Virus genome (UHGV): UHGV-1292143
Origin: a virus
DNA: 22,583 nt
Direction: 5' to 3' (one strand)
Position numbers and translations under genes: made by a program. Of the stretch, positions 1 through 16,038 are shown in pieces; the first letter of the stretch is position 1, and the number at the start of each line of letters is the position of its first letter. The notes beneath the pieces are model-generated. The model saw only the letters and a list, made by a program, of their open reading frames with translations. It had not been told where the DNA came from and did not search any database.

Positions 1-202
1 CCCGGCATCCAACGCCATTCATGGCCATATCAATGATTTTCTGGTGCGTACCGGGCTGAGAGGCGGTGTAAGTGAACTGTAGTTGCCATGTTTTACGGCA
101 ATGAGAGCAGAGATAGCGCTGATGTCCGGCAGTGCTTTTGCCGTTACGCACCACGCCTTCAGTAGCGGAGCAGGAAGGACATCTGATGGAAATGGAAGCC
201 AC
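1..202 (-). CDS. insA: IS1 InsA, N-terminal part (3' end lies outside the window)
   Basis: Minus-strand frame starting at GTG (200-202) translates to [51 protein letters not shown]..., the InsA zinc-finger N-terminus; the start sits at IS1 position 56 as expected. Confidence 0.75.
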
Positions 203-257
203 GCAAGCACCTTAAAATCACCATCATACACTAAATCAGTAAGTTGGCAGCATTACC
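1..257 (-). mobile_element. IS1-family insertion sequence, partial; the element continues beyond the window start
   Basis: Reverse complement of 1-257 aligns to the first ~257 bp of IS1. The terminal inverted repeat at 235-257 has one mismatch to the canonical GGTGATGCTGCCAACTTACTGAT. By eye this copy is roughly 10% divergent from the canonical copy at the right edge. Confidence 0.85.
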
Positions 258-383
258 CAGATACCAGTCCCCCCATATCAAGAACATTGGCTAACGTATA
301 AGCGGCTTTTTGCTGGAATGATGGATCTTGTCCTGATTTAAGCCCAAACGCTCGACGTTGCGCTTCTGTATCATTCCAACCGG

Positions 384-902
384 TTAAGCGAATTCCCAAA
401 AACGCAAATCAACGATCGCTTCTTTGAATTCCGCGTCGTCTTCAGGTGGCAATGCTGCACGGCGCATCTCCAGCATTTCCATTGCCCAACCATCAAGCGG
501 CACGATACGCCATTGATAAGGTACTCCCTCTACAGGCACCTCAATATCGTCAATGAACGGTTCCACTTCCAGGACCTGGATATCTTCAGCCAGAGCATTC
601 ATATCGCAATCGTAATAATGCTCTTTACCGCAATGTTTACAGGTGTAGGTGAATGTCTCGACCGGTGTTTCACGGGAGCCGGTAAATATCCACCATAACG
701 CGGTAATCCGGTCCTGCGCCGTCCATGTCAGGGGATCATGTTTCGCGGGTTCAGCCAGCAAGGCTTTTAAATACGCCGTTGTCTGTTGTTCTTGTTCCTC
801 CGGTGTTATCGAGTTGAAACGCATCGCATCAGCAATATTTGGCTGACGGAACTGGATCAATTCAGTTGGCCGCGATGGTAGCGGGAAAAGGGGTAAAAGC
901 AT
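384..902 (-). CDS. hypothetical phage morphogenesis protein (172 aa, CKHCGKEHYYDCD cysteine cluster)
   Basis: ORF with GGAG Shine-Dalgarno 6 nt upstream of the ATG at 902; tightly packed behind 917-1528 and 1539-2105 in one minus-strand operon. Function not recognisable from sequence. Confidence 0.6.
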   Translation of the reverse strand: MLLPLFPLPSRPTELIQFRQPNIADAMRFNSITPEEQEQQTTAYLKALLAEPAKHDPLTWTAQDRITALWWIFTGSRETPVETFTYTCKHCGKEHYYDCDMNALAEDIQVLEVEPFIDDIEVPVEGVPYQWRIVPLDGWAMEMLEMRRAALPPEDDAEFKEAIVDLRFWEFA

Positions 903-916
903 CCTTGCTCCTTAAT

Positions 917-1528
917 TCAAAGAGAAAAACTAAAGCCCAGAAGGGAAGCCAAAGAACTTGAGGATTGGTTAAACGTGCTGTGCAATGCGAAGGTCATTGG
1001 GAATGACTTAAATTCCGTAACCTGATCCCGCGCATAGGTGACATCGCCGGTAGTGACCGGGAATACCGTCATCTCATTTTCCAGTTTGGTTAAGCCGGAA
1101 GACAGCAACCGATAAATACGCACATTGAGCAAATATTTAGACGGTATATTCCCGGTACCGTCCGGATTGATCACCCGACTTTTTGCCGTCTTAAACCAGT
1201 CCAAAACGAGGCCATCAACGGTATCCCTGACCATCATTGTTATCTGCCCAGGCGAACGCTCTGTTGGTTGAAGGATATTCCCTCCGCCGATTTTAATCGT
1301 TTCATATTCGATGCTGTAATCGTGGTAGGTAATGTCTTTGGCAAAGAAGTCTGCCCCCTCCAGTCCATCAACTTCGACAGAGAACTGCCATCCTTGCGCG
1401 AACAGCATTTTGTTCATGATGATTGACGTCAGCTTACCAACTTCCCGCTCACCAACGCCGGAGCCAAATAATGTCGTCGTTAATGCCGAAGATACATAAG
1501 ACTTTACTGAAGCAACATTAAGCCCCAT
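917..1528 (-). CDS. phage structural protein, possibly tail-tube or tube-initiator-like (203 aa)
   Basis: ORF in the operon with 384-902 and 1539-2105. Sequence pattern loosely resembles T4 gp19-type tube proteins; this is a by-eye impression, not a search result. Confidence 0.45.
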   Translation of the reverse strand: MGLNVASVKSYVSSALTTTLFGSGVGEREVGKLTSIIMNKMLFAQGWQFSVEVDGLEGADFFAKDITYHDYSIEYETIKIGGGNILQPTERSPGQITMMVRDTVDGLVLDWFKTAKSRVINPDGTGNIPSKYLLNVRIYRLLSSGLTKLENEMTVFPVTTGDVTYARDQVTEFKSFPMTFALHSTFNQSSSSLASLLGFSFSL

Positions 1529-1538
1529 ATCAGCCCCC

Positions 1539-2146
<608 letters not shown>

Positions 2147-2235
2147 ATGTCATTTGTCCATTGTGCCAACTGTTATTATGGATATCATAATTCATACGAA
2201 TCGCGCTGCTACAGGATGTATAGCAACCTTAATAA

Positions 2236-3495
2236 TTATTTGAATATATCAGTTATAGTTGGGTAATTATACATCTTAAGCTTATCTCTAAATTTCATAG
2301 AAAATATAGGGTCTACCTTACATCTGTGTAAGAGCTTTGCAATCCTTAGCTCCCTCTCATTCATAATATCTTTGTATTCGCTATCAATACTTTCCTGAAT
2401 TTGCTGATTCTCAACAGGAGACGGTTTAGTAATTTTATCCCATTGATAAGTTGGCTTCGTAGTGTAATTTAAACTATCATCATTTTGGAGTAATGCCTCA
2501 AGACGAGACTTAGCATTTTCATATAGCATTCTATCTTGGGGCAACATACTTGCAACACGCATTTCCATTTCAATTTCCGATACTATCATTTCAAGTTGAC
2601 GTTTTTCCGTTTCAATAGCTAAAAGAAATGGAAATAGGGCTTCTTGCTTAATCATTTGACAATTCAAATTATTGTTTATGCCACTAAGTAATTTTGTAAA
2701 TGAGAACTTCTTTAAAGGCTGCTGATTTATAACACTCTGTCTAACTGGCATTGTGTAGTTCGGTGTTTTTTCAAGTGTTTTCTTCACTTGCTCTATAGCA
2801 ACATTAGGAGTGTTGAAAACAGTCTTTGCTGGAATACGTAGCACCATAAACCCCTCCTTTATTGAATATTCATCACGAATACGATCTCGCTCTATTTGTT
2901 CTGGGGATGAATGCCATGCTGCACCATCAATTTCTATAATTTGGCGTCCATTTACGACAAAATCAAAACGATAACGCTTATAGGGCACTTGCATTTCAAG
3001 CACTAAGTCAGGAGAAACTAACATTCCAGATTTAGGTTTAAGATTAAACTCTGCAACCATTTTACGAAGAAATGCCTCCTCAGCCGGAGATTCGCAACCT
3101 TTGCAAAATATATCAAGCCAGTTTTCTGCGTCAGCGTCAACAGTTTGCCACCATGCTAACAGTCCACGTCGGTGTCCATATAATCGTTCATCTGACGGTT
3201 TTGTTAATGGCTTTGTTAACGGTTTAACTAAGGGTTCATTTAACGGCTTTAATAACGGCTTAAATAACGGCTTATTTAACGAATTTAATAACGATTTATT
3301 TAATGGTTTGATTGACGGTCTATTTGACGACTCAATCGGTGGTTTAGATGATGATTTGTTTTTTTTATCAAAACCTACGATAGTTATATATGCTACATAT
3401 AGCATCATGCCTGCAACAGGCCATACACATGGATAAATCACGTAACACAACAGTAATAGAACAATAGTCCCAAAAAATGTTAACTTCTTCCGCAT
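2236..3495 (-). CDS. membrane-anchored protein with DUF559/Vsr-like (PD-(D/E)xK-type) endonuclease-like domain (419 aa)
   Basis: N-terminus MRKK + hydrophobic hairpin (FFGTIVLLLLCYVIYPCVW / MMLYVAYITIVGF); Pro/Lys-rich tetrapeptide repeat linker; core YRFDFVVNGRQIIEIDGAAWHSSPEQIERDRIRDEYSIKEGFMVLRIP matches the DUF559 signature (RxDF ... IEIDG..H ... D..R ... G..VLR); C-terminal ~190 aa predicted helical, unknown. Confidence 0.6.
   Translation of the reverse strand: MRKKLTFFGTIVLLLLCYVIYPCVWPVAGMMLYVAYITIVGFDKKNKSSSKPPIESSNRPSIKPLNKSLLNSLNKPLFKPLLKPLNEPLVKPLTKPLTKPSDERLYGHRRGLLAWWQTVDADAENWLDIFCKGCESPAEEAFLRKMVAEFNLKPKSGMLVSPDLVLEMQVPYKRYRFDFVVNGRQIIEIDGAAWHSSPEQIERDRIRDEYSIKEGFMVLRIPAKTVFNTPNVAIEQVKKTLEKTPNYTMPVRQSVINQQPLKKFSFTKLLSGINNNLNCQMIKQEALFPFLLAIETEKRQLEMIVSEIEMEMRVASMLPQDRMLYENAKSRLEALLQNDDSLNYTTKPTYQWDKITKPSPVENQQIQESIDSEYKDIMNERELRIAKLLHRCKVDPIFSMKFRDKLKMYNYPTITDIFK
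3195..3356 (-). repeat. about 13 imperfect tandem 12-bp units inside the 2236-3495 CDS, encoding K-P-L-x tetrapeptide repeats
   Basis: Plus-strand units such as TTAATAACGGCT / TAAATAACGGCT / TATTTAACGAAT; translated on minus strand as LNKP LFKP LLKP LNEP LVKP LTKP LTKP. Confidence 0.8.
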
Positions 3496-3720
3496 ACCAA
3501 ACTCTTTGCATCAATAAAGGGGACTGGCTTATATAATCAAATCACATGCCCGAAATAAAAGATGACCAACACCAACGGAAATCACACTCTAAACTAATAT
3601 ACATTAACACTTAATATCGCCATCACAATTGATTGATTATGCTAATTTAAAAATGATATTTTTACAGAGAATATACAGCTCTACAAGATGACTATTACAC
3701 CAAAATTTAAAAAAATCATT

Positions 3721-3766
3721 GGCAACCTTGTAGAATTGATATTAACAATCGATTCTACGGGTTGCC
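3721..3766 (-). terminator. long inverted repeat (GGCAACCTTGTAGAAT-N15-ATTCTACGGGTTGCC) followed on the minus strand by a T-run; likely terminator of the 4874-3811 transcript
   Basis: 15-16 bp arms with one mismatch; minus-strand sequence after the hairpin is AATGATTTTTTTAAATTTTGG. The 15-nt loop is large for a terminator. Confidence 0.45.
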
Positions 3767-3810
3767 ATTTGCTACATAGAGTGTAATAAGAGAGGATGGT
3801 TCAACGGAAA

Positions 3811-4350
3811 TTACCACCAGCTACTGGCTTTTTTCTCCCTTGCTTTACCTTCGCTTTGCAATAAATCCTTACTCCCTGAAGAGATGTTACGATTTGCATC
3901 AGCTTCAGACTGAATCACATCAGTTCTTGCAGCCCTTTCCTTTAGCTCCTGCTCAATGAAATCGTTTTCTCTCTTAACTCGAGCAGCTTTCGCTTGTAGC
4001 TCAAGCTTCATTTTCTCAAGTTCTAATTTACGAAGCTCATCTTCATAAGCCTGATTTCGCTTTTTCTCTGCGGTCAATTCAGCTTCACGCTTCGCTCTGC
4101 GCTCATTTTCCGCCGCTATACGAGCTTTCTCGCGGGCATTTGCAGCTGCCGCAGCCCTCTCTCTTCTTAAACGTTCAGCATTTTCTTGCTTGCGAATTTG
4201 CTCTAGTCTGGCATCCTCCAGCTGCTGTTCTCTTGCTCGACCTTCACTTTCTGCCTGGGCAATAGCAGCTATTTGACTCTGCAATGAATTAGCAAATACA
4301 TTGCCTGTATTCAAAGCAGCCAAACATAAATAACAAATAATTTTCTTCAT
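3811..4350 (-). CDS. secreted highly charged ER/K-rich coiled-coil protein (179 aa)
   Basis: N-terminal signal peptide MKKIICYLCLAALNTGNVFA; mature part is E/R/K/A-rich helical (TolA-domain-II-like composition). Starts 11 nt after the stop of the upstream lipoprotein gene. Confidence 0.65.
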   Translation of the reverse strand: MKKIICYLCLAALNTGNVFANSLQSQIAAIAQAESEGRAREQQLEDARLEQIRKQENAERLRRERAAAAANAREKARIAAENERRAKREAELTAEKKRNQAYEDELRKLELEKMKLELQAKAARVKRENDFIEQELKERAARTDVIQSEADANRNISSGSKDLLQSEGKAREKKASSWW

Positions 4351-4361
4351 ATCTTATTGAG

Positions 4362-4874
4362 TTATTTTTTATCAGGACATGTAGCATTAGGTTGAATGCG
4401 CGTTTCGTTTTCTTTCGTTGAAATCAAAGCCGCGATTCCAGGGGCAAATTGGCAAGCTCTACCAACCTGTGTAGATGTATAGACTTTAGTACCTTCCTTG
4501 TAAGTAAGAGATACACCTTCAACAATTGATTTATCACTTACCATAGAACCAGCAGCTGCGCCAAGAGCTCCACCGCCAGCACCACCAGCAACTGCACCCA
4601 AGGTAGAAGTTCCTTTAATATTATATCCAGCAACACTACCAGCTACTGCACCGAGAACAGCACCGAAAGTCTGAGCTGCTTGTTTATTAGCTGTATTATC
4701 AACTTTTACTTTGGCTGGGAGAACAGAGATTATATTTACTACTCTTGTTTCTTGTTTTGAATTAAGTTGGGCTGTGTCGTACACATCTGCCGCATATTCA
4801 GCACCATTAGACTGACACCCTGAGAGAAAAATTGCAGAAACAACCATGACGCATAAAGAAGAAATTTTAGCCAT
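4362..4874 (-). CDS. SlyB/Pcp-like glycine-zipper outer-membrane lipoprotein (about 170 aa from the chosen start)
   Basis: Lipobox AIFLSG|C after a signal peptide; Gly/Ala zipper GAVLGAVAGSVAGYNIKGTSTLGAVAGGAGGGALGAAAGS; overall resemblance to E. coli SlyB. Start chosen at ATG 4872-4874 (MAKISS...); alternatives are 4883 or the track start 4934. Confidence 0.65.
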   Translation of the reverse strand: MAKISSLCVMVVSAIFLSGCQSNGAEYAADVYDTAQLNSKQETRVVNIISVLPAKVKVDNTANKQAAQTFGAVLGAVAGSVAGYNIKGTSTLGAVAGGAGGGALGAAAGSMVSDKSIVEGVSLTYKEGTKVYTSTQVGRACQFAPGIAALISTKENETRIQPNATCPDKK

Positions 4875-5163
4875 TAGAATCATCCCAGAAAAAAAATATA
4901 ATCCAAGAAAATCTATCACATAAGCCAAATACAAACAAGATTAATCCTATTGATGTATATCAATTATTATAAAAAATACGATCTTCATTGCTGAAGCTGC
5001 GTTATATTAAGTCTAAAAAAATCAACTATCGACATTATATGCTCTGCTAATAATTTACACTTGATTTAGTTGAGTTGGTTTAATATTGACACTAACTCAC
5101 TCTCTAATTATATACAATTTCCAATTTTATATGCGCATATATGGAAACCTATACCAACAGCAT

Positions 5164-5180
5164 GTTGCTCTAATAAATTT
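5164..5180 (+). promoter_or_regulatory. C1-repressor-type operator (P1 Op51-like) overlapping a promoter
   Basis: GTTGCTCTAATAAATTT, one mismatch to the P1 C1 operator consensus ATTGCTCTAATAAATTT as I recall it; TTGCTC acts as a -35 with TAAGTC 17 bp downstream (5188-5193). Confidence 0.6.
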
Positions 5181-5218
5181 GTCTTTTTAAGTCACGAATG
5201 CTATCTTTTCGCATCATA

Positions 5219-5247
5219 TTGACCTTTTAATCGTTCAGGCTTATAGT
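5219..5247 (+). promoter_or_regulatory. sigma70-type promoter for c4-icd-ant (-35 TTGACC, 17-bp spacer, -10 TATAGT)
   Basis: TTGACC at 5219-5224 and TATAGT at 5242-5247; sits downstream of the operator, as for the constitutive second promoter of P1 immI. Confidence 0.5.
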
Positions 5248-5367
5248 TCCGCCGTCGTAGCAAATTCTGCGACCGGGTTTAGCAGCCTGAATGATTGTGC
5301 GGACAGCCGCAGATATCCGATATTGCGGTATTTTTGTGTCCGTAAAACCGCGTTACGCCCAAATTAT

Positions 5368-5444
5368 GGTGGGACGTGATGGGGAGGCTTCGGCCTGCTG
5401 GTTTCACAATCGCCAGTCTGCTAACCCCGTCACGTCCTGCCACC
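5368..5444 (+). ncRNA. c4: C4-like antisense RNA (77 nt) of the immunity-I region
   Basis: GGTGGGACGTGATGGGG ... CCCCGTCACGTCCTGCCACC closes a long stem; internal hairpins AGGC-UUCG-GCCU and CUGG-UUUCACAAUCG-CCAG. Loop sequence CACAATC is complementary to GATTGTG at 5293-5299 and at 5477-5483, the latter just upstream of the icd GAGG Shine-Dalgarno (5483-5486). Confidence 0.55.
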
Positions 5445-5494
5445 TGTTTAGCAGCGGGTAGCAGGTTGTTAAACCTGATTGTGAGGCCGTAACT

Positions 5495-5716
5495 ATGGTT
5501 AATGCCAATCCTTACGCACGCCAAGAATTCATCTGGCGTTTCTATTCCTGTAAAAAACACCACTATCACTTCGTCATCGCAGCAACAGAAGACGAAGCAC
5601 GCTCTCAATTGCCTGATGGCCCCTGCATTTTTACTGCCCGTTTTTCAACTAACTCGCGCAATTCACTTAGTTACTGGAACCTCCCCTTCTCTGCCGACGT
5701 TCAGGGGGATTTATGA
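5495..5716 (+). CDS. icd: Icd-like small protein (73 aa), translationally coupled to ant
   Basis: 73-aa ORF whose stop overlaps the ant start (ATGA at 5713-5716); position downstream of c4 matches P1 immI organisation. Confidence 0.65.
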   Translation: MVNANPYARQEFIWRFYSCKKHHYHFVIAATEDEARSQLPDGPCIFTARFSTNSRNSLSYWNLPFSADVQGDL

Positions 5717-6747
5717 AAAAACCTCTCGTCACCCGTAATGAAATAGCCGAAGCGATCGCCCTGCATACAACCTGTATGCCGACACGGGAGATCCCCGGCG
5801 CAATTGCCAACTATTTCATGATAACCAGACGTTTTTATACCCGAACAGATAAGGCTGTGATCAACAAGCTACTGATAGCCGAGATCAGGGATTATTTGAT
5901 TGAACAAGGACGTCTACGTTACGCAACAGTGGCAGCAGAAATGAGAAAGGAGGCACACAGAGTGACCGGTAAAAATTTGAATATTGAAAAACCAGCACCT
6001 GTTACGTCAGCTACGCCAACACCAGCCGTGAATGTCATCCCCAACATCGGAGACACAATCGACAGCCAAACATTGTTGAAGATGGTCAATGAGGCACGGA
6101 AATTATGTAGCGAAAAACCAGTTCGCAATAATGATTTCATTGCCAGAGTTAAGGATGAACTTGAAGGAGAAACCTACGAAATTTTCGTAGGTCAAAAAAA
6201 CGGCGCAGAAATAGATATTATAACAATGACCTACAAACAAGCCCTGCGAGTTGCCGCGCGCGAGTCAAAAGCGGTCCGCCGTTCGCTGATCGACAAACTG
6301 GAAGAATTACAGCAGGCAAACTCCCCTACCCCATCGATCCCCCAGACATTACCAGAAGCCCTACGCCTGGCTGCCGAGTTAGCAGAACAGAAAATGCAGT
6401 TGGAACAACAGCTGGTGGCCGCAGCCCCTAAAGTCGATTTTGCCGACCGGGTATCAGTGGCCAATGGAATCCTGATCGGGAACTTTGCAAAGGTCGTTGG
6501 ACTTAAGCAAAACGCCCTTTTCTCATGGTTGCGCCAGAACGGCATTCTCATGGCTTTTGGTGCGCGCAAAAACGTACCGCGCCAACAGTACATCAACGCC
6601 GGGTATTTCACGGTGAAAGAAGTGGTGTTGGATGATGAAAATGGCTACCAGATACGGCTGACGCCCCAATTAACGGGTAAAGGCCAGCAGTGGTTAACTC
6701 GCAAGCTACTTGATGCTGGTTTGTTAAAACCAGTAGCAATAGGTTAA
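5713..6747 (+). CDS. ant: antirepressor Ant-like protein with C-terminal KilA-C/ANT domain (344 aa)
   Basis: C-terminal region PKVDFADRV...IGNFAKVVG...LFSWLRQNGIL...GYFTVKE...GKGQQWL is a KilA-C-type antirepressor domain; gene order c4-icd-ant. Confidence 0.65.
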   Translation: MKKPLVTRNEIAEAIALHTTCMPTREIPGAIANYFMITRRFYTRTDKAVINKLLIAEIRDYLIEQGRLRYATVAAEMRKEAHRVTGKNLNIEKPAPVTSATPTPAVNVIPNIGDTIDSQTLLKMVNEARKLCSEKPVRNNDFIARVKDELEGETYEIFVGQKNGAEIDIITMTYKQALRVAARESKAVRRSLIDKLEELQQANSPTPSIPQTLPEALRLAAELAEQKMQLEQQLVAAAPKVDFADRVSVANGILIGNFAKVVGLKQNALFSWLRQNGILMAFGARKNVPRQQYINAGYFTVKEVVLDDENGYQIRLTPQLTGKGQQWLTRKLLDAGLLKPVAIG

Positions 6748-6758
6748 CAAAAGAAAAA

Positions 6759-6784
6759 ACCTGCCAGCAAACTGACAGGTTTCT
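6759..6784 (+). terminator. rho-independent terminator after ant
   Basis: ACCTGCCAG-CAAA-CTGACAGGT hairpin (one mismatch) followed by TTCT. Confidence 0.5.
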
Positions 6785-6824
6785 GAGCAGATCGACCAAC
6801 CCGATCTGGATCGAGTTAGAAAAA

Positions 6825-6841
6825 TTTGCTCTAATAAATTT
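6825..6841 (+). promoter_or_regulatory. C1-repressor-type operator (P1 Op53-like) in front of kilA
   Basis: TTTGCTCTAATAAATTT; same extended promoter architecture as at 5164 (TTGCTC ... 17 bp ... TAAGTG). Confidence 0.6.
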
Positions 6842-6910
6842 CGTTTTCTAAGTGCAAAGAATCACCATTTCGAGCTGGTGATTGAAGGTTGATGCAAATT
6901 TGGAGAAAAA

Positions 6911-7711
6911 ATGCAACAAACATTCAATGCGGATATGAATATATCAAACCTTCATCAAAATGTCGATCCTTCAACCACTCTTCCCGTTATTTGTGGTGTT
7001 GAAATTACGACCGACCGCGCTGGCCGTTACAACCTTAATGCTCTACACAGAGCGAGCGGACTCGGTGCCCATAAAGCGCCAGCTCAATGGCTAAGAACGC
7101 TGTCAGCTAAACAGCTCATCGAAGAGCTTGAAAAAGAAACTATGCAGAATTGCATAGTTTCGTTCGAAGGCCGTGGCGGCGGCACTTTTGCCCATGAATT
7201 GCTCGCAGTGGAGTACGCTGGTTGGATTTCTCCCGCGTTTCGGCTGAAGGTAAACCAGACATTTATCGACTATCGAGCTGGAAGATTACAACCTGCTATT
7301 CCGCAGAGTCTCCCTGAAGCTCTCCGTTTGGCTGCCGAACTGGCAGAGCAAAAGCAACGGCTGGAGCAAAAAATGCTTATGGATGCACCTAAAGTCGAAT
7401 TCGCCGAACGCGTTGCTACCGCCAGCGGGGTTCTAATCGGCAACTATGCCAAAGTGCTCGGCCTGGGCCAAAACTATCTCTTCACCTGGTTGCGTGATAA
7501 CGGAATTCTGATCGCAACCGGTGAACGCAGGAACGTCCCCAAACAAGAATACATATCCCGTGGATATTTCACCCTTAAAGAAACCGTGATCGATACAAGC
7601 AATGGAAGCAGGATTTCTTTCACGACTCGTATAACCGGCAAAGGTCAGCAGTGGCTGATGAAGCGATTGCTTGATGCTGGTGTGCTGGTACCTGTCGCGG
7701 CAACGCGCTAA
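6911..7711 (+). CDS. kilA: KilA-like protein: KilA-N domain plus KilA-C domain (266 aa)
   Basis: N-terminal VICGVEITTDRAGRYNLNALHRASGLGAHKAPAQWLRT...FAHELLAVEYAGWISPAFRLKV (KilA-N-like); C-terminal domain about 65% identical to the Ant C-terminus; GGAGA Shine-Dalgarno before the ATG. Confidence 0.7.
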   Translation: MQQTFNADMNISNLHQNVDPSTTLPVICGVEITTDRAGRYNLNALHRASGLGAHKAPAQWLRTLSAKQLIEELEKETMQNCIVSFEGRGGGTFAHELLAVEYAGWISPAFRLKVNQTFIDYRAGRLQPAIPQSLPEALRLAAELAEQKQRLEQKMLMDAPKVEFAERVATASGVLIGNYAKVLGLGQNYLFTWLRDNGILIATGERRNVPKQEYISRGYFTLKETVIDTSNGSRISFTTRITGKGQQWLMKRLLDAGVLVPVAATR

Positions 7712-7740
7712 CAGACGTAGTAAGAACCACCAGCATTGTA

Positions 7741-8241
7741 ATGCTGGCTAAAGTCACTTTCCTGAGCTGTATAACGATGAGCGATTTTACTTTTTCTGGC
7801 TATGAATTGGCCTGCTTTGTAACACACTCCGGTCTATCCCGTAGCGCCGGGCATATCCTGTCGCAATGTGCAAATCTCGCGGCAACAACCAGTGAATACT
7901 TCATTCACAAGCCTCACCGCCTGATCGCGGCAGAAACTGGTTATAGCCAATCAACCGTCGTTCGTGCATTCCGTGAAGCTGTAAACAAAGGAATCCTGTC
8001 TGTAGAGATTGTTATCGGCGATCACCGTGAACGTCGCGCTAACCTGTACCGGTTTACACCATCCTTTTTGGCCTTCGCACAACAAGCCAAAAATGCGCTG
8101 ACTGAAAGCAAATTAAAGATCTCTTCAGCGGCAACCAAGGTTAAAGCTGTTATCGCTAAGACATTGGCTTTATTTAATTTTATATCCACACCCCATGTCA
8201 AAATGATACCCCCTCCCCCTGTCAGGATGACGTGGCAATAA
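7741..8241 (+). CDS. repL: RepL-like lytic replication protein, N-terminal reading frame (166 aa); appears truncated by a frameshift
   Basis: Immediately follows kilA as in P1; frame ends at 8239-8241 just after a CCCCCTCCCCCT tract. Confidence 0.55.
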   Translation: MLAKVTFLSCITMSDFTFSGYELACFVTHSGLSRSAGHILSQCANLAATTSEYFIHKPHRLIAAETGYSQSTVVRAFREAVNKGILSVEIVIGDHRERRANLYRFTPSFLAFAQQAKNALTESKLKISSAATKVKAVIAKTLALFNFISTPHVKMIPPPPVRMTWQ

Positions 8242-8585
8242 AGAATAAGAAGTCACAAGTTAAAAAAACAAAAAGATCAGTTTCCGGCGGTGCCGGAACG
8301 TCCAGACTCAAAAAATTGACTTCATGGATCGCTGAGGCAAAAGCAAAGGCTGACAATCTGCGGTTATCCCAAAAACGCGCTCAAAAACATGAGTTCAAGC
8401 AGAAAGTAGAGGCGGCTGCGCGGAAATATGCTTACCTGAAGAACAAGCGTTCGCCTGATATTGGCGGGATATCAAACTTCGATAACCTACCGCATTGCAT
8501 GACGGTAAACGAAGCTCTTAATGCGGTTTTAGCCAAAAATAAAGATAACGATCAATGGGGTATACCGGCGGGATTCAGAGGGTGA
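8232..8585 (+). CDS. continuation of repL in a different frame (117 aa), or a separate small basic protein
   Basis: Frame is open from 8178 with no ATG. Restoring 1 nt would fuse it to 7741-8241 to give 281 codons, the length I recall for P1 RepL. Confidence 0.4.
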   Translation: MAIKNKKSQVKKTKRSVSGGAGTSRLKKLTSWIAEAKAKADNLRLSQKRAQKHEFKQKVEAAARKYAYLKNKRSPDIGGISNFDNLPHCMTVNEALNAVLAKNKDNDQWGIPAGFRG

Positions 8586-8799
8586 TAGATTGCTCTAATC
8601 TGGAGTCACCTGGCGTTTTCAGTATGGATTTTCTTTGGCGCGGTCTGGCCATTAGGGATCATGTTTGCTGCAACGTTTCTTCTGATGTGGGTATTCACCC
8701 TTCCAGGTGATTTCTATAGAAAAAAAGCCAGACATTGATACAATCGCTGCGGGTGCTTGAGGCTATCTGCTTCAGGCATTACCCGAAAAGCAGATAGAA

Positions 8800-8871
8800 G
8801 AAAGCCCCAGATAACATTACGCGTCCTGCAAGACGCTTAACATTAATCTGAGGCAATATCTATGCTTAGCA
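8800..8871 (-). ncRNA. possible Sok-like antisense RNA
   Basis: Minus-strand promoter-like TTGACC (8901-8906) - 18 bp - TAATCT (8877-8882); the transcript would be complementary to the mok start region at 8862. Inferred from hok/sok architecture only. Confidence 0.3.
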
Positions 8872-9068
8872 TACGTAGATTAGCCTCTTACCGACCAAAA
8901 GGTCAAGGAGAAGCAGGCTATGAAGCAGCAAAAAGCGATGTTAATCGCTCTGATCGTCATCTGTTTAACCGTCATTGTGACGGCACTGGTAACGAGGAAA
9001 GACCTCTGCGAGGTACGAATCCGAACCGGCCAGACGGAGGTCACTGTCTTCACAGCCTACGAATCTGA
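8862..9068 (+). CDS. mok-like leader ORF overlapping hok in another frame
   Basis: 68-aa ORF starting upstream of hok and overlapping it, as in hok/mok/sok loci. Confidence 0.4.
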   Translation: MLSIRRLASYRPKGQGEAGYEAAKSDVNRSDRHLFNRHCDGTGNEERPLRGTNPNRPDGGHCLHSLRI

Positions 9069-9075
9069 AAGGTAA
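8920..9075 (+). CDS. hok: Hok/Gef-family type I toxin (51 aa)
   Basis: MKQQKAMLIALIVICLTVIVTALVTRKDLCEVRIRTGQTEVTVFTAYESER: N-terminal transmembrane helix plus conserved TRKDLCEV and FTAYE motifs; AAGGAG Shine-Dalgarno 9 nt upstream. Confidence 0.85.
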   Translation: MKQQKAMLIALIVICLTVIVTALVTRKDLCEVRIRTGQTEVTVFTAYESER

Positions 9076-9097
9076 GAGACCTGGCGGGGAGAGATCC

Positions 9098-10435
9098 CAT
9101 AAGCGCTAACTTAAGGGTTGAACCATCTGAAGAATGCGACGCCTCGGTGCCTCGTTAAGACGATGCCTCGCGTTCTTCAATTGCGTTTTGTAGGCTGTCA
9201 GGGATACTGTCCCACGAATGGCCACCTGTAAGCTCCAGATGACCATTTTTGTTATTCTCCACAACGAGTTAGTTCTTCTTTTCGGATCCGGCACTTCTGG
9301 GGGGGAAATCCAGCGATGGCTGGATTATGTCGTCAATTAAAAATGCGGCGAGTAGATTAGCAAATATCCACGCTTTCGCGAGTTCAGGTTCCTTTGCACG
9401 CAAAGCATCCAGGTGCAGCAAACTTTTGAGCCGCTTAAAAGCCAGTTCAATTTGCCATCGCAGACGGTAACAATCAGCCACTTGCTCTGCTGAATATTCA
9501 TCTTCCGGTAATGATGTTAGCAATAGCACATGGCCCGCTGCTTCCAGCGTTTCCGCCTGAACTACTCGTCCTTTTCGACGATTCTCGCTGAGCAGTCGGG
9601 TTTTACTGATTAATGCTTTTTCGGGAGGAAGTGATACGGCAATGAGACGTGCCGGAAAGGGAGCTCCGGCTTTTTTATTACCTGAATTGCCTATCATTAC
9701 AGTGGTTTCACCGTTCTTACCGCAATCCAGCCCGCGCAGAAAACCCATCATGTCAAAGCGCATTCCTTCTGCAGTTAACCAGCGCAATCCTCGCCAGTGA
9801 ACCCGGACGATATAATCAGCTTCTCCAAAAGCAAGTGAGCGGATACATTCGGGACGCGAACCGAATCCCCGGTCAGCAATGCGTATCTCGTCTGCCGTTT
9901 GCGCAAATCGGTCCAGCCGTTCAGCGTCTCTGCTGTCGGTTAGCTCAAAATCAGTGAACTGACAGGTATGAGGATCATATCCCATATGTAGTCGCCATTC
10001 AGCGCTGCCGCCCCCGGGCGCACTGATTGCTGTTCCATCGACAAGACGCAATCTCTTTCCGCTTGTACAACCCGTAACTGCGGCGCGTACAGCAAGTGTT
10101 TGTGCGGCAAGTATGCCAAACCAGTCGGCGGCATTCCGCAGCCGCTTCAGGAGAGCCACGTCAGATAATGTTGCAACGTCATGGAGCTGAGCCCATGCAG
10201 TGACTTCACGTAATGACATCCCCCCGGGCCGTAAGCCAGCCCCAGACGTAGCAGAGTTGCAGCATCACGAATTTCGCGGCGGCGGGTTAGAGCCCCGGCA
10301 TTACGTGCCGAAGTATCCAGTTCTTCGGGCTTACCAATATGGGCCAGAATTGCTGACCAGTTATCGTGAGAGTAATTCATCGGCACGTTAAATCATATCA
10401 GGCGTAATACCACAACCCTTAAGTTAGCGCTTATG
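9098..10435 (-). mobile_element. IS186-like insertion sequence (IS4 family), 1338 bp, with a 10-bp target duplication
   Basis: Perfect 23-bp terminal inverted repeats CATAAGCGCTAACTTAAGGGTTG; flanking direct repeat GGAGAGATCC (9088-9097 and 10436-10445) within a GGGG-N-CCCC target, typical for IS186. Confidence 0.85.
9269..10386 (-). pseudogene. IS186 transposase, split by a -1 frameshift in a G-run
   Basis: N-terminal 56 aa (MPMNYSHDNW...GPGG) and the 316-aa DDE body (MSLREV...YRLRWQIELAFKRLK) are in different frames. The junction is a C6 run at 10220-10225 (G6 on the coding strand); restoring one G makes a continuous ~372-codon ORF. Confidence 0.7.
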
Positions 10436-10491
10436 GGAGAGATCCCCGCCACTCTTCGTGTGTCAGGTATCCTCAATGCACCCTTTCCTCT

Positions 10492-10522
10492 CCAAATAAA
10501 AAAGCTCCCGAAGGAGCTTTAA
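10492..10522 (-). terminator. rho-independent terminator ending the minus-strand late operon
   Basis: Minus strand reads AAAGCTCC-TTCG-GGAGCTTT followed by TTTTTATTT, immediately after the stop of the 10540-11049 gene. Confidence 0.6.
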
Positions 10523-10539
10523 AATACAAGGGATGACTC

Positions 10540-11049
10540 TTAATCCCACTCAATCCAGTTGTAGACGATACGAAGTGACGGGCGCACAGCGGCAGTCACA
10601 TCTTCGGTACTAAAGTCGATTGCATCACTGTAGATTTTGCAGTCCAACATTTCAATTGTTGTAGCAGCTTTTGTCACAGCGTTAACCCCGGAAGCTTTGG
10701 ATTCAGGGGTAGCAGCCATCGTGATATCAACATAGTCCTTCGCCGCAATGCGATCCTTAATGAACTGAAGAATATCGCCTTCGATAGTCTCCACGCACTG
10801 GACCTGGATTTCCCCAGAGTTTCGAATTGCTCCGTGCTGGTTGAACTTCACACCATTCGGACCATAGTCCTCCACATCCTCTCGAGTCATTTCAGGGATT
10901 TGCGACGTGCGAACCAGTACGCTGATATCTTCATGGCCTGCAAAAGTGAGCTGGAATTCAGAAGATACCAGTCGTTCGCCTTTGGCCGCGTTGGCAGTAT
11001 AGCGGCCCTTAATAAATTTACGGTTTCCCTTAGTGTTATTGTGCCCCAT
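10540..11049 (-). CDS. phage tail tube-like protein (169 aa)
   Basis: Pattern resembles T4 gp19-family tube proteins (FQLTF... ; C-terminal LRIVYNWIEWD versus gp19 ...LALDYWE); AAGGA Shine-Dalgarno. Assignment from memory. Confidence 0.5.
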   Translation of the reverse strand: MGHNNTKGNRKFIKGRYTANAAKGERLVSSEFQLTFAGHEDISVLVRTSQIPEMTREDVEDYGPNGVKFNQHGAIRNSGEIQVQCVETIEGDILQFIKDRIAAKDYVDITMAATPESKASGVNAVTKAATTIEMLDCKIYSDAIDFSTEDVTAAVRPSLRIVYNWIEWD

Positions 11050-11060
11050 ATAAAATCCTT

Positions 11061-11642
11061 TTACTGGAACGCCCGAACAATATCGGAGCTGTTATATATC
11101 GAAGAACCGGTCAACTGGAGGTTGACGGTGTTTTTCAGGAAATATCCATTACTGTCCCTTGGCGCATCGAGATCAAAACTTAAGTCCTGGATGGCGACAT
11201 CGGTGATGTTGATCCGGCGACCAATGTTTAGCGTCACGCGCTCCGGGATTCGACCACCAACATTGGCCGCTTTTAGTTCCGGGCTAATCATGGCTGTCAA
11301 CGCGGCGATAGCGCCTGAAACTTCAATGAATGGATTGTTCAAAGCAATGAAAGTTACAGGCAGCGTGAACGTCGGCGGAGTCCCCCCTTCCCAAACCATT
11401 AAGCTATTCCAACGGGCAACCGACGTTGTTTCAGTACCTACTTGCACAAAACCACCCAGAGCACCAGAAACAGATCCCATGGACATACCGGTAAACGGCG
11501 CTTCCCAATTCTGGGCCATGTTCATTGCCGCTCCCTGGCTGATATATCCGGTAACCTGGTACTGAGAGTTCGTTAAAGTAACTTTCAGATATGGCGATAC
11601 ACCGTCAGCCTGGCTGTAAACCCCATAAGCTATAGGAGCCAT
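11061..11642 (-). CDS. phage late/virion protein of unknown function (193 aa)
   Basis: ORF in the late operon; start preceded by a GC hairpin rather than a canonical Shine-Dalgarno. Confidence 0.6.
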   Translation of the reverse strand: MAPIAYGVYSQADGVSPYLKVTLTNSQYQVTGYISQGAAMNMAQNWEAPFTGMSMGSVSGALGGFVQVGTETTSVARWNSLMVWEGGTPPTFTLPVTFIALNNPFIEVSGAIAALTAMISPELKAANVGGRIPERVTLNIGRRINITDVAIQDLSFDLDAPRDSNGYFLKNTVNLQLTGSSIYNSSDIVRAFQ

Positions 11643-11652
11643 TCAAGTTAAA

Positions 11653-11670
11653 GGCCGGAGTTCTCCGGCC
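11653..11670 (-). promoter_or_regulatory. GC-rich hairpin between the acidic-protein gene and the 193-aa gene
   Basis: GGCCGGAG / CTCCGGCC stem; on the minus strand it lies between an AGGAGG motif and the ATG at 11642. Confidence 0.4.
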
Positions 11671-11677
11671 TCCTCCT

Positions 11678-12493
11678 TTAGCCAAGGCGCTTACGGCGCA
11701 GTTTCATTGACTTTTTGCGGGCAAGTTTTGCCGCGCCGGTCTGGGCTTTTCGACGCACTTTTTTCAGCGCCGATTTTTGAGCCGCAGTCAGACGTTTTTT
11801 ACGCAGGCGTTTACGGATGAGTTTGATCTCACCGTTACGAACAACCTTCTTAAATGCTTCAGTCAGCATTTCATCAGAAGTGCCAGCAACAACAAACGCC
11901 GCTTCCAGTTCGTCGCGGTCGTCGCTATCTAAACCAGCGATAGAGGCACCAACATCAGCAGCTGCGTCGTCGTCTTCATCGTCAGCCAGTGCTTCGATCA
12001 GGTCATCATCTACACCGCATGCTGCGAGGAAGTTAGCAACATTTGCCCATGCTTCGTTATAGGCATCGTCCTGTTCTTCTGTAACTTCGGAGTCGTCGTC
12101 ATCAGAGATACCAGCGATAGCCTGAACGAAACCATCAAGGGAGTCGAAAGTCAGATCACCGCTATCAGCCCAGGCGAAAACGGCGTCGGCCGCATCACTC
12201 AACGCATTCTGCATAGCACTTCGATTTGCAGCTTCCAGAATCATCTGGTGCGCCTGTTCGACGGTCCATTCTTTACCGTCTTTCCCTTCCAGGATTTGCT
12301 CAGGAGCCGTGGCAGATGGAGCGTTATCGTTAGTCTGTGCCGCCGGTTCCGGATTATTATTAATAACCGGATCTGTTGTCGGTTCGGCGCTTGCTCGGGC
12401 AGACTCCATCAACTGCACAAGATCAGAGTTCAAAGCGAAACGAGACAGTCCATTCCCCAAAAATACCCCGGATTGAAAAAAGTTTTTGCTCAT
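11678..12493 (-). CDS. very acidic protein with a strongly basic C-terminal tail (271 aa); possible scaffold or internal virion protein
   Basis: D/E-rich body (many DDDD runs) and C-terminal KLIRKRLRKKRL...RRKRLG; AAGGA Shine-Dalgarno 7 nt upstream; starts 10 nt after the stop of 12503-14008. Confidence 0.65.
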   Translation of the reverse strand: MSKNFFQSGVFLGNGLSRFALNSDLVQLMESARASAEPTTDPVINNNPEPAAQTNDNAPSATAPEQILEGKDGKEWTVEQAHQMILEAANRSAMQNALSDAADAVFAWADSGDLTFDSLDGFVQAIAGISDDDDSEVTEEQDDAYNEAWANVANFLAACGVDDDLIEALADDEDDDAAADVGASIAGLDSDDRDELEAAFVVAGTSDEMLTEAFKKVVRNGEIKLIRKRLRKKRLTAAQKSALKKVRRKAQTGAAKLARKKSMKLRRKRLG

Positions 12494-12502
12494 TGTATTT
12501 CC

Positions 12503-14008: not shown

Positions 14009-14023
14009 AACTTTCCCTGTTAT

Positions 14024-14041
14024 GCGCCCCGCACGGGGCGC
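14024..14041 (-). promoter_or_regulatory. perfect 8-bp GC stem hairpin between the head-precursor and sheath-like genes
   Basis: GCGCCCCG / CGGGGCGC with no downstream U-run; likely an mRNA-stability or attenuation element rather than a full terminator. Confidence 0.4.
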
Positions 14042-14067
14042 TATGTTAAACGGAGAACTTCCCCTGA

Positions 14068-15774: not shown

Positions 15775-15825
15775 TTTACTCTTCCTTAAACACAAGGCAC
15801 TTGTGTGAATCCCTTTTCGGAAGAG

Positions 15826-15854
15826 ATTTTATTGAAAGTCACTTGTTGACTTTC
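15826..15854 (-). promoter_or_regulatory. candidate late promoter: palindrome GAAAGTCA-N5-TGACTTTC with a TAAAAT -10 hexamer 2 bp downstream
   Basis: Seen on the minus strand about 50 nt upstream of the head-gene start. Architecture (palindrome around -22/-25 plus -10, no -35) resembles P1 Lpa-dependent late promoters as I recall them. Confidence 0.35.
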
Positions 15855-15914
15855 TCGCGAAAAGTAATTTTTTAAATTTTTTGTGCGGGGAAGTGGACGG
15901 TGAATGCAGGCGTT

Positions 15915-15990: not shown

Positions 15991-16038
15991 GGACATTTTA
16001 GGAAGGGGAGGGGCTAACACCACCTCCCACCAGCGGGA

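What the first reader, a model, noticed from the sequence alone, without database searches (positions are those of the whole stretch)
2150..5160. AT-rich three-gene envelope-directed island with a membrane-tethered nuclease-fold protein: candidate undescribed exclusion/defence module
Between the phage morphogenesis genes and the c4-icd-ant immunity region lies a ~3 kb segment that is visibly more AT-rich than the surrounding backbone (by eye, not computed). It carries three co-oriented genes whose products are all sorted to the cell envelope: a SlyB-like glycine-zipper lipoprotein (4362-4874), a signal-peptide-bearing ER/K-rich coiled-coil protein (3811-4350) and a membrane-anchored protein with a DUF559/Vsr-like PD-(D/E)xK nuclease fold (2236-3495). 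I do not recognise this combination as any named defence or exclusion system. In P1-type genomes this neighbourhood is where superinfection-exclusion (sim) functions sit, so a nuclease-armed envelope module here is a plausible superinfection-exclusion or abortive-infection system.
Basis: partly seen in the sequence, partly recalled or inferred. Interest (0 to 1): 0.85.

Follow-up and report, generated by a model that had tools for sequence, protein, structure and literature searches.

The report
Membrane-tethered nuclease in P1 sim hotspot
In the slot where phage P1 keeps its superinfection-exclusion genes, this P1-like phage-plasmid carries two separable cargoes: a phage copy of the E. coli outer-membrane pair yfgH/yfgI (already known from phage P7) and a solitary, uncharacterised nuclease anchored to the inner membrane, which may cut incoming foreign DNA but has never been tested.

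Summary
The island spans window 2164-5165, has 37% GC against 48.6% elsewhere, and carries three co-oriented minus-strand genes at the stated coordinates. It fills the simABC slot of a P1-like phage-plasmid that is 99.96% identical to E. coli pE2.

The interpretation as one three-gene system is not supported.
- Two genes are 80-84% identical to P7 Upf50.0 and Upf50.5. They are mobile paralogues of the core chromosomal operon yfgH-yfgI. 163 of about 510 P1-like E. coli records carry that pair without the nuclease.
- The 419-aa gene lies in its own 1.6-kb cassette, bracketed by two copies of the late-promoter LPsit core. It persists where yfgI is deleted, and its homologues elsewhere are solitary genes.

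It matches no PADLOC defence model over its full length, and I found no paper describing the family. The closest functional analogue is SNIPE, which has unrelated domains.

My best reading, at about 0.45, is a single-gene nuclease that cuts incoming DNA at the membrane. That function is untested.

The parts
2164..5165 (-). AT-rich cargo island occupying the simABC slot of the P1-type backbone, between the late promoter LPsit/pmgC and the C1 operator Oc4/c4-icd-ant
   Evidence: Homology to P1 and to a sim-type plasmid stops at 2163 and resumes at 5166. GC is 0.370 against 0.486 elsewhere.
2137..2155 (-). LPsit core (-22 box AAATGACAT plus -10 TAGAAT), the resident late promoter of the pmgC-tub-pmgB operon and the downstream bracket of the nuclease cassette
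   Evidence: Position corresponds to the LPsit annotated in P1 and P7. Confirmed by alignment and pattern search.
2236..3495 (-). 419-aa membrane-tethered DUF559/Vsr-fold nuclease gene (RefSeq WP_077250855.1, 'endonuclease domain-containing protein')
3355..3495 (-). Codons 1-47: N-terminal hydrophobic helical hairpin (helices 3-20 and 22-47 around a near-invariant Pro22), flanked by MRKK and DKKNK. Predicted N-in/C-in inner-membrane anchor.
   Evidence: AF2 secondary structure. 53 of 54 homologues have a hydrophobic N-terminal stretch, mostly 30-42 aa.
3157..3354 (-). Codons 48-113: disordered basic linker (pI 10.6) rich in K-P-L repeats. It is about 55 aa longer than in other family members.
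   Evidence: pLDDT below 50. Linker is 91 aa here against 26-48 aa in all but the near-identical P0002 allele (82 aa). pI.
3204..3303 (-). 12/24/36-nt tandem DNA repeats encoding the KPL linker; copy number varies between alleles
   Evidence: TRF. The L002 allele lacks 8 aa here.
2770..3156 (-). Codons 114-242: Vsr-like PD-(D/E)xK (DUF559/MTES_1575) nuclease domain. Invariant residues are E135, E139, Q169, Y175, R176, D178, E188, D190, H195, R203, D204, R207 and D208.
2239..2769 (-). Codons 243-419: conserved all-helical C-terminal domain of unknown fold and function. It is the most variable part between close alleles.
   Evidence: pLDDT above 90 for long helices 266-315, 319-338 and 364-408. 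No PDB or BFVD match to this part. 26 of the 31 nonsynonymous changes between the two P1-type alleles fall here, and dS is 0.096 against 0.012 in the nuclease domain.
3727..3771 (-). Second, diverged copy of the LPsit core (AAATGGCAACCCGTAGAAT) with its hairpin, located just after the yfgI-like stop codon. It is the upstream bracket of the 1,615-bp nuclease cassette and a possible late promoter for the nuclease gene.
   Evidence: Alignment; pattern search finds exactly two sites, 0.16 expected by chance; direct repeat D2 at 84% identity with 1615-nt spacing.
3811..4350 (-). yfgI-like gene: 179-aa exported ER/K-rich coiled-coil protein (DUF5384), equivalent to P7 Upf50.0
   Evidence: Pfam E 6.5e-44; 80% identity to P7 Upf50.0; about 68% nt identity to chromosomal yfgI; phrog_1094.
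4362..4874 (-). yfgH-like gene: 170-aa glycine-zipper outer-membrane lipoprotein (lipobox LSGC), equivalent to P7 Upf50.5
   Evidence: 84% identity to P7 Upf50.5; chromosomal yfgH match; weak glycine-zipper and TraT hits; phrog_1277.

Best explanation
The island is two independent accessory modules stacked in the known variable 'sim' slot of P1-like phage-plasmids.

Module 1 (3811-4874) is a phage-borne paralogue pair of the core E. coli operon yfgH-yfgI. It encodes an outer-membrane glycine-zipper lipoprotein and an exported coiled-coil protein, and is the same pair P7 carries as upf50.5/upf50.0. Like the exported Sim proteins it replaces, it most plausibly alters or stabilises the lysogen's envelope. 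This is inferred.

Module 2 (about 2156-3771) is a 1.6-kb cassette bracketed by two LPsit copies. It encodes a solitary nuclease that I propose works as follows.
- An N-terminal hydrophobic hairpin holds it in the inner membrane with both ends in the cytoplasm.
- A flexible basic linker tethers an intact Vsr/DUF559-type catalytic domain.
- A conserved but fast-evolving helical C-terminal domain acts as the specificity or regulatory part.
- Confinement to the membrane keeps the nuclease away from the nucleoid and places it where foreign DNA enters, so it cuts phage or plasmid DNA as it enters.

This would be functionally analogous to SNIPE but built from unrelated domains.

Shown: gene structure, fold, conservation, purifying selection and separability of the modules. 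Inferred: topology, nuclease activity, the target, and any defence phenotype.
For: Separability of the modules:
- P7 and 163 of 510 E. coli P1-like records carry the pair directly abutting LPsit, with no nuclease.
- Only 15 records carry all three genes, and these are near-identical.
- In the sister lineages L002, L006 and L007, window 3594-4570 is deleted, removing yfgI and the 3' part of yfgH. The nuclease ORF stays intact in L002 and L006.
- A 315-bp gap containing an LPsit-like copy separates the nuclease from the pair.
- A P1-like contig about 28% diverged (L016) has the nuclease immediately upstream of LPsit-pmgC, but no yfgI in the 623 bp upstream of it.

Autonomy of the nuclease:
- In nine non-P1 contexts it has no conserved neighbour. 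These include a 3-kb Rop/ColE1-type plasmid where it is the only sizeable cargo gene.
- One homologue sits beside a type I R-M and a SoFic-like gene. Another sits beside a Lamassu-like LmuB/LmuC operon.

Protein evidence:
- Pfam DUF559 scores above its cut-off.
- The motif residues D178, E188, D190 and H195 and the ERDRxRD stretch are invariant in 54 homologues. They align with the solved DUF559 protein 3hrl.
- dN/dS is 0.05 in the nuclease domain.
- The hydrophobic hairpin is present in 53 of 54 homologues, and both flanks are basic in this protein.
- The family is distinct but small: 221 clusters at E<=1e-30.

Locus and precedent:
- simABC is a documented low-GC variable region of P1-like phage-plasmids (PMC9603915), and sim is non-essential (PMC10695390).
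- SNIPE shows that membrane tethering can both restrain a nuclease and aim it at injected DNA (bioRxiv 10.1101/2025.11.03.685801).
Against: - No experiment or phenotype exists for any family member that I could find.
- PADLOC and NCBIfam match only the generic DUF559 core of Hhe and PDC-S37.
- Only 2 of about 9 non-P1 contexts are clearly defence islands.
- The gene is absent from all 50,697 deposited phage records. It is rare overall, at 29 plasmid records.
- IS91 has disrupted it in one plasmid, so it is dispensable.
- The only promoter-like element seen upstream is a copy of an Lpa-dependent late promoter. If it works, the gene would be expressed in lytic growth rather than in the lysogen, which fits a lysogen-protecting defence poorly.
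- Topology rests on hydrophobicity, charge and AF2, not on a dedicated predictor or an assay.
- Each hairpin helix is short (17-25 aa), so monotopic insertion is possible.
Confidence: 0.45

Rival explanations
1. The three genes form one envelope-spanning exclusion or abortive-infection system, in which the outer-membrane lipoprotein and periplasmic coiled-coil sense or block an infecting phage and hand over to the membrane nuclease.
For: The genes are co-oriented and adjacent in one low-GC island. The window-type yfgHI allele (about 80% identical to P7's) is found in this dataset only together with the nuclease or its deletion derivatives. The slot normally holds exported exclusion proteins.
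Against: - The pair is common without the nuclease (163 records).
- The nuclease keeps an intact ORF after loss of yfgI and most of yfgH.
- In nine non-P1 contexts and in L016, no yfgHI-like gene is next to a homologue.
- A 315-bp spacer with its own promoter-like element separates the units.
- The 15 three-gene records are one near-clonal lineage, so their linkage is by descent.
Confidence: 0.1
2. The cassette is a free-standing, homing-endonuclease-like selfish gene. A Vsr-family nuclease inserted between conserved phage genes cuts nuclease-less P1 relatives during co-infection, and spreads by recombinational repair.
For: - BFVD neighbours are phage DUF559 and homing-endonuclease proteins.
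- The cassette sits intergenically, next to the highly conserved essential pmgC-tub operon. It is bracketed by 25-nt direct repeats of the LPsit core in this lineage, and a P1-like lineage about 28% diverged has the same gene position, a full LPsit copy downstream and a decayed hairpin upstream.
- The upstream element resembles a late promoter, as is typical of phage free-standing homing genes (established knowledge from T4 seg/mob genes).
- Distribution is patchy.
Against: - The membrane hairpin is conserved in 53 of 54 homologues, which is unexpected for an enzyme that must reach replicating phage DNA.
- Most homologues lie in chromosomes and plasmids of Rhizobiales, Pseudomonas and Enterobacterales, not in phage genomes.
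- No recognised DNA-binding module (NUMOD, HTH) was detected.
- The gene is absent from all deposited phage records.
Confidence: 0.15
3. It is a late lytic-cycle accessory function of the phage. Transcribed from the LPsit-like copy together with the tail genes, the nuclease acts during virion production, for example by excluding superinfecting DNA late in infection or by processing DNA at the membrane, rather than protecting the lysogen.
For: - The only promoter-like element found in the 315 bp upstream is the LPsit-like copy. It has an intact -10 (TAGAAT) and 6 of 9 bases of the -22 box.
- No terminator lies between the gene and LPsit/pmgC.
- P1 late promoters depend on Lpa (PMC10695390).
Against: - Promoter function is untested, and the equivalent element in L016 is decayed (TAGCAT).
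- Homologues on a 3-kb ColE1-type plasmid and in chromosomes have no Lpa, so they must be expressed otherwise.
- This host element looks defective as a phage, with pmgB truncated and repL frameshifted, yet the nuclease ORF is intact.
- The consensus scan is crude and could miss a sigma-70 promoter.
Confidence: 0.15
4. It is a housekeeping-type DNA repair or processing enzyme that merely happens to be mobile: a Vsr-like nicking activity acting on membrane-associated DNA, with no role in conflict.
Against: - There is no linked cytosine methyltransferase in any context, as a Vsr-type role would predict.
- Distribution is sporadic and strain-variable, on mobile elements.
- The gene lies in a phage accessory hotspot.
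- The C-terminal domain shows allele mosaicism, typical of conflict genes.
Confidence: 0.07

Closest known systems
Phage P7 Upf50.0/Upf50.5 and the E. coli chromosomal YfgI (DUF5384)/YfgH pair
   Same: Same gene order, same locus in the P1-type backbone, and 80% and 84% aa identity to the P7 proteins. About 68% nt identity to yfgH-yfgI, which is present in 5419 of 5426 E. coli genomes. Lipobox, glycine zipper and Sec signal are all retained. YfgH is described as a SlyB-like outer-membrane stabiliser (bioRxiv 10.64898/2025.12.22.696046).
   Different: This is a diverged allele, about 20% from P7's. In this dataset it is seen only in the nuclease-carrying lineage. No function has been shown for the phage copies.
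SNIPE (membrane-bound GIY-YIG nuclease that cleaves phage DNA during injection; Saxton et al., bioRxiv 10.1101/2025.11.03.685801)
   Same: A single polypeptide with an N-terminal inner-membrane anchor, a cytoplasmic nuclease, and an additional conserved domain that is more variable than the nuclease. Both are carried on mobile or defence loci. In both, membrane tethering is the plausible means of self/non-self discrimination.
   Different: There is no sequence or domain relationship. [quoted passage not shown] There is no DUF4041. The anchor is a two-helix hairpin (N-in/C-in) rather than a single pass with a periplasmic N-terminus. No defence phenotype is known.
P1 SimABC superinfection exclusion (superimmunity)
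   Same: Exactly the same genomic slot between LPsit/pmgC and Oc4. Both are low-GC, non-essential cargo. The products are exported, as are the yfgH/yfgI-like proteins.
   Different: No detectable sequence similarity to SimA, SimB or SimC (best E 0.47). Sim contains no nuclease.
DUF559/Vsr-like endonucleases (NGO0050 3hrl; homing endonuclease I-Bth0305I 3r3p; E. coli Vsr 1cw0; C-terminal DUF559 modules of Hhe and PDC-S37)
   Same: Same catalytic fold and motifs.
   Different: Those proteins are soluble. They are stand-alone ~100-aa domains, homing enzymes with DNA-binding modules, or C-terminal effectors of very large helicases. None has the hydrophobic hairpin plus the ~175-aa helical domain that defines this family.

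Membership tests
DUF559 / Vsr-like PD-(D/E)xK nuclease superfamily | Profile match above the curated threshold | tested here: met
   PF04480 scores 30.5 bits against a cut-off of 20.6. PF18741 scores 37.5 against 38.2, just below its cut-off.
DUF559 / Vsr-like PD-(D/E)xK nuclease superfamily | Vsr-type alpha/beta fold | tested here: met
DUF559 / Vsr-like PD-(D/E)xK nuclease superfamily | Conserved acidic/His motif residues (xDF ... ExDG ... H ... RDxxRD) | tested here: met
   D178, E188, D190, H195, R203, D204, R207 and D208 are invariant in 54 homologues and align to 3hrl.
DUF559 / Vsr-like PD-(D/E)xK nuclease superfamily | Demonstrated endonuclease activity | not testable with these tools
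   Needs biochemistry.
YfgH/YfgI (DUF5384) envelope pair, = P7 Upf50.5/Upf50.0 | DUF5384 profile match, and an adjacent glycine-zipper lipoprotein in the same order | tested here: met
   PF17358 E 6.5e-44. Both genes align to chromosomal yfgH-yfgI and to the P7 genes.
YfgH/YfgI (DUF5384) envelope pair, = P7 Upf50.5/Upf50.0 | Export signals (lipobox; Sec signal peptide) | tested here: met
   Read directly from the sequences...FLSG|CQS and ...NVFA|NS. P7 annotates signal peptides at the same places.
SNIPE | N-terminal membrane anchor with a cytoplasmic nuclease | tested here: inconclusive
   A hydrophobic hairpin with basic flanks predicts this arrangement. There is no topology assay, and the anchor type differs.
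SNIPE | DUF4041 domain | tested here: not met
   No DUF4041 hit even at E<=1.
SNIPE | GIY-YIG nuclease domain | tested here: not met
   The nuclease is of the Vsr/DUF559 fold.
P1 Sim (SimA/SimB/SimC) | Sequence homology to Sim proteins | tested here: not met
   BLASTP best E is 0.47.
P1 Sim (SimA/SimB/SimC) | Location between pmgC/LPsit and Oc4-c4 | tested here: met
Any PADLOC-DB v2 defence system | Full-length match to a defence protein model | tested here: not met
   Only local hits to the DUF559 core of PDC-S37 (E 1.1e-5) and Hhe, covering about 60-75 residues. Nothing significant for the other two proteins: only LmuB at E 0.15 for the DUF5384 protein, and none for the lipoprotein.
Restriction-modification | Cognate methyltransferase encoded next to the nuclease | tested here: not met
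   No methyltransferase is adjacent in the window or in most homologue contexts. The Pseudomonas type I hsdMS lies 5 kb away behind other genes. The RefSeq/PHROG label 'DNA methyltransferase' on the lipoprotein is a mis-annotation.
Free-standing homing endonuclease | Intergenic insertion between conserved phage genes, with its own promoter | tested here: inconclusive
   The position and the LPsit-like copy fit. Promoter activity is unknown.
Free-standing homing endonuclease | Soluble DNA-targeting enzyme that cleaves the cassette-less allele | not tested
   The conserved membrane hairpin argues against this. Cleavage of the cassette-less allele needs an experiment.

The most novel reading that the evidence does not exclude
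The 419-aa protein is the founding member of an undescribed family of single-gene, membrane-tethered Vsr-fold nucleases. The family has about 220 clusters at 50% identity across Proteobacteria. Its members would destroy incoming phage or plasmid DNA at the inner membrane, using the fast-evolving helical C-terminal domain to recognise the entry machinery or to gate the nuclease. This would be a second, evolutionarily independent solution to the SNIPE strategy. It is carried here as a late-promoter-bracketed cassette in the exclusion hotspot of P1-like phage-plasmids.
Probability: 0.4. Interest if true: 0.7.

Novelty: new variant of a known kind. Interest (0 to 1): 0.5.

Why it matters
If the nuclease is a defence protein, tethering a non-specific nuclease at the DNA-entry site would have evolved more than once from unrelated folds. 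It would add a compact single-gene system to the repertoire. It would also show that P1-like phage-plasmids, which are common vehicles of resistance genes in E. coli, swap exclusion and defence cargo at the sim slot.

Independently of that, the analysis tidies the locus. The sim slot has at least three allelic states: sim, the yfgHI-like pair, and the yfgHI-like pair plus the nuclease. About a third of P1-like elements carry a paralogue of a host outer-membrane stabiliser there, a lysogenic-conversion candidate that nobody has tested.

Tried and rejected
- Three-gene system: rejected on co-occurrence and on homologue contexts.
- Match to Sim proteins: none.
- Known defence systems: PADLOC and NCBIfam give only local DUF559-core hits.
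- Sequence search of PDB chains with the single protein: nothing relevant. The profile search gave only marginal hits to 3hrl and 3r3p; the fold searches were what settled the fold.
- Literature: no paper in the library mentions DUF5384. Searches for DUF559 with phage defence, and for MTES_1575, found nothing on this architecture. The 2026 domain-centric defence screen does not mention it.
- Promoters and terminators: the consensus scan found no sigma-70 promoter upstream of the nuclease or the pair on the coding strand, and no terminator between the genes. This crude scan cannot exclude either.
- Phage database: tblastn of the nuclease found no hit.
- One context look-up failed because the protein was not on record.

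Full report
**What is there.** The window is a P1-like phage-plasmid. Bases 6-19466 are 99.96% identical to E. coli plasmid pE2, NZ_CP086663.1, and the flanks are 96-98% identical to P1 and P7.
- Against P1 and a sim-type plasmid, the backbone ends at 2163 and resumes at 5166. The left junction lies just past the late promoter LPsit of the pmgC-tub operon. The right junction lies at the C1 operator Oc4.
- The island has 37.0% GC against 48.6% for the rest of the window. No other 3-kb window here falls below 44.9%.
- The simABC slot is already described as one of eight low-GC variable regions of P1-like phage-plasmids (PMC9603915). In P1 it is non-essential (PMC10695390).

**Two of the three genes are known.**
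- The 179-aa protein is DUF5384 (E 6.5e-44) and 80% identical to P7 Upf50.0.
- The 170-aa lipoprotein is 84% identical to P7 Upf50.5.
- P7 carries exactly this pair in exactly this slot.
- At about 68% nucleotide identity, both genes match the chromosomal operon yfgH-yfgI, which is present in 5419 of 5426 complete E. coli genomes.
- YfgH was recently described as a SlyB-like glycine-zipper lipoprotein that stabilises the outer membrane under stress (bioRxiv 10.64898/2025.12.22.696046).
- None of the three proteins resembles SimA, SimB or SimC.
- The common alternative cargo seen in the other plasmids (L004) is simply SimC/SimB.

**The three genes are not one unit.**
- A P7-type pair abutting LPsit, with no nuclease, is present in 163 of 510 matching E. 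coli records.
- The full three-gene island is present in only 15 records, all at least 99.5% identical over 3.15 kb. That is one recent lineage.
- A sister lineage about 5% diverged (L002, L006, L007 and others) has lost window 3594-4570. This removes all of yfgI and the 3' part of yfgH.
- In that lineage the nuclease ORF is intact in L002 and L006. IS91 interrupts it in L007, and IS1 sits just downstream of it in L006.
- Relative to P7, the extra DNA is window 2158-3811.

**The nuclease cassette is bracketed by promoter repeats.**
- The LPsit core AAATGACATCTCGTAGAAT lies at 2137-2155. A diverged copy, AAATGGCAACCCGTAGAAT with a similar hairpin, lies at 3752-3770, right after the yfgI-like stop codon where P7 has its single LPsit.
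- The copies form a 25-nt direct repeat at 84% identity, spaced 1615 nt apart.
- The closest non-identical relative of the nuclease is P0003, at 56% aa identity. It lies on a short contig (L016) that is also P1-like.
- On L016 the gene is followed by LPsit and the start of pmgC, and preceded by a decayed version of the hairpin. There is no yfgI in the 623 bp upstream.
- The nuclease is therefore a separate cassette that has sat at this position in at least two P1-like lineages.

**The nuclease protein.** AlphaFold2 with a 54-sequence alignment gives mean pLDDT 81. It predicts four parts:
- helices 3-20 and 22-47, forming the hydrophobic hairpin;
- a disordered segment, 48-111;
- a confident alpha/beta domain, 115-241;
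- a confident all-helical domain, 266-418.

The fold of the alpha/beta domain is settled.
- Foldseek agrees, with TM 0.78.
- E135, E139, D178, E188, D190, H195 and the R203-D204-x-x-R207-D208 stretch are invariant across 54 homologues. They align with 3hrl.

The membrane anchor is a family trait.
- 53 of 54 homologues have a hydrophobic N-terminal stretch, mostly 30-42 residues, with a near-invariant central proline.
- In this protein it is flanked by MRKK and DKKNK.
- A stretch that long, broken by a proline and basic on both sides, is best read as a helical hairpin with both ends in the cytoplasm.
- So the catalytic domain is predicted to be cytoplasmic and tethered to the inner membrane, not exported. 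This is an inference from hydrophobicity, charge and the AF2 model. No dedicated topology predictor or assay was available.
- The linker is 91 aa here, against 26-48 aa in every relative except the near-identical P0002 allele (82 aa).
- The extra length is a basic K-P-L repeat encoded by 12/24/36-nt tandem repeats at 3204-3303. It varies by 8 aa between the two P1-type alleles.

**Family and contexts.**
- A profile search of 1.84 billion representatives finds 221 proteins at E<=1e-30, mostly 340-410 aa and matched end to end. Only the generic DUF559 core matches beyond that. The family is distinct but small.
- Homologues occur in Pectobacterium, Pantoea, Pseudomonas, Mesorhizobium, Rhizobium and Roseomonas.
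- In nine non-P1 contexts the gene has no conserved neighbour. These contexts are:
  - a Pectobacterium islet beside fis/dusB;
  - a Pseudomonas region with type I hsdM/hsdS, a resolvase and a SoFic-like Fic protein;
  - a Mesorhizobium site next to a Lamassu-like LmuB/LmuC operon;
  - a plasmid near a TrwC relaxase;
  - ordinary-looking chromosomal sites;
  - 3-kb Rop/ColE1-type plasmids of E. coli and Shigella, where it is the only sizeable cargo gene.
- No deposited phage genome encodes it.

**Selection.**
- Between the window and L016 alleles, dN/dS is 0.05 in the nuclease domain, 0.33 in the C-terminal domain and 0.39 in the anchor.
- Between the two close P1-type alleles, 26 of 31 nonsynonymous changes fall in the C-terminal domain.
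- Synonymous divergence there is eight-fold higher than in the nuclease domain (0.096 against 0.012). This points to recombinational exchange of that domain.
- The gene is therefore functional and constrained, with a variable accessory domain.

**Most likely mechanism.** I read the island as two stacked, independent cargoes.
- The yfgH/yfgI-like pair is exported and probably changes envelope properties of the lysogen. This would be exclusion or outer-membrane robustness, by analogy with the exported Sim proteins it replaces. Nothing here tests it.
- The nuclease is most plausibly a single-gene system that cuts DNA at the cytoplasmic face of the inner membrane.
- The precedent is SNIPE, a TM-DUF4041-GIY-YIG protein that cleaves phage DNA during injection. 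Removing its anchor makes it toxic (bioRxiv 10.1101/2025.11.03.685801; review PMC12904381).
- The present protein shares that logic but none of the domains. It is an analogue, not a member.
- I put about 0.45 on this reading.

**Main uncertainties.**
- There is no phenotype for any family member.
- Only two contexts are clearly defence islands.
- The only promoter-like element upstream is a copy of an Lpa-dependent late promoter. That would imply lytic-phase expression.

**Rivals** (weights given in the rival section):
- a homing-endonuclease-like selfish cassette, which fits the position, the bracketing repeats and the fold relatives but not the conserved membrane anchor or the non-phage distribution;
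- a late lytic accessory role;
- a repair-type role.

**Novelty and score.**
- The island itself, the hotspot and two of its genes are already known or annotated.
- The nuclease family appears undescribed. It is not in PADLOC v2, and I found no literature on it.
- If it is a defence protein, it would be a new variant of the membrane-localised nuclease strategy.
- Interest is moderate at 0.5: a concrete, cheaply testable candidate, but with no functional evidence, and the headline three-gene idea does not hold.

Noticed in passing
window 3727-3771 and 2106-2156 (minus strand): The LPsit late-promoter core and its hairpin are present twice, as a 25-nt direct repeat at 84% identity spaced 1615 bp apart, bracketing the nuclease cassette. 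The upstream copy sits where P7 has its single LPsit. A roughly 28% diverged P1-like contig (L016) has an LPsit copy downstream of the nuclease homologue and a decayed hairpin upstream. Whether the upstream copy is an active Lpa-dependent promoter is unknown.
   Followed up: partly
window 1-902: pmgB, an essential morphogenetic gene in P1, is truncated to 172 codons against 293 in P1. An IS1 terminal inverted repeat (GGTAATGCTGCCAACTTACTGATTTAG, reverse strand) ends near position 257. This element is probably defective as a phage.
   Followed up: partly
window 7741-8585: Two overlapping ORFs (166 aa and 117 aa) correspond to a gene that RefSeq annotates in the near-identical (99.96%) pE2 as a frameshifted 'MarR family regulator'. 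By position, after kilA, this should be the lytic replication gene repL, so it too looks inactivated. Identity to RepL was not checked.
   Followed up: no
window about 8920-10380: By coordinate mapping to pE2, a frameshifted IS421 (IS4 family) transposase and a hokD type I toxin gene occupy the rlfA/rlfB variable region.
   Followed up: no
window 4362-4874; P7 NC_050152.1 upf50.5: RefSeq names the P7 orthologue 'DNA methyltransferase', and PHROG 1277 carries the same label. The protein is a 170-aa glycine-zipper lipoprotein homologous to YfgH, so this is a propagated mis-annotation that could falsely suggest an R-M pairing with the nuclease.
   Followed up: yes
window 3204-3303: 12/24/36-nt tandem repeats encode a K-P-L-rich disordered linker that differs by 8 aa between alleles. 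Most other family members lack this expansion, so tether length is evolving in the P1 lineage.
   Followed up: partly
L016 1-30: The contig carrying the closest nuclease relative begins with a REP-like palindromic element (GGATAAGGCGCTCACGCCGCATCCGGCA), about 600 bp upstream of the gene and in place of a yfgI-like gene. Recognition as REP-like is from memory.
   Followed up: no
window 5713-6747 and 6911-7711: The Ant1-like and KilA-like proteins share a nearly identical internal stretch (…PQ[ST]LPEALRLAAELAEQK…) and a similar C-terminal KilAC domain, so they are paralogous antirepressor-type genes side by side.
   Followed up: no
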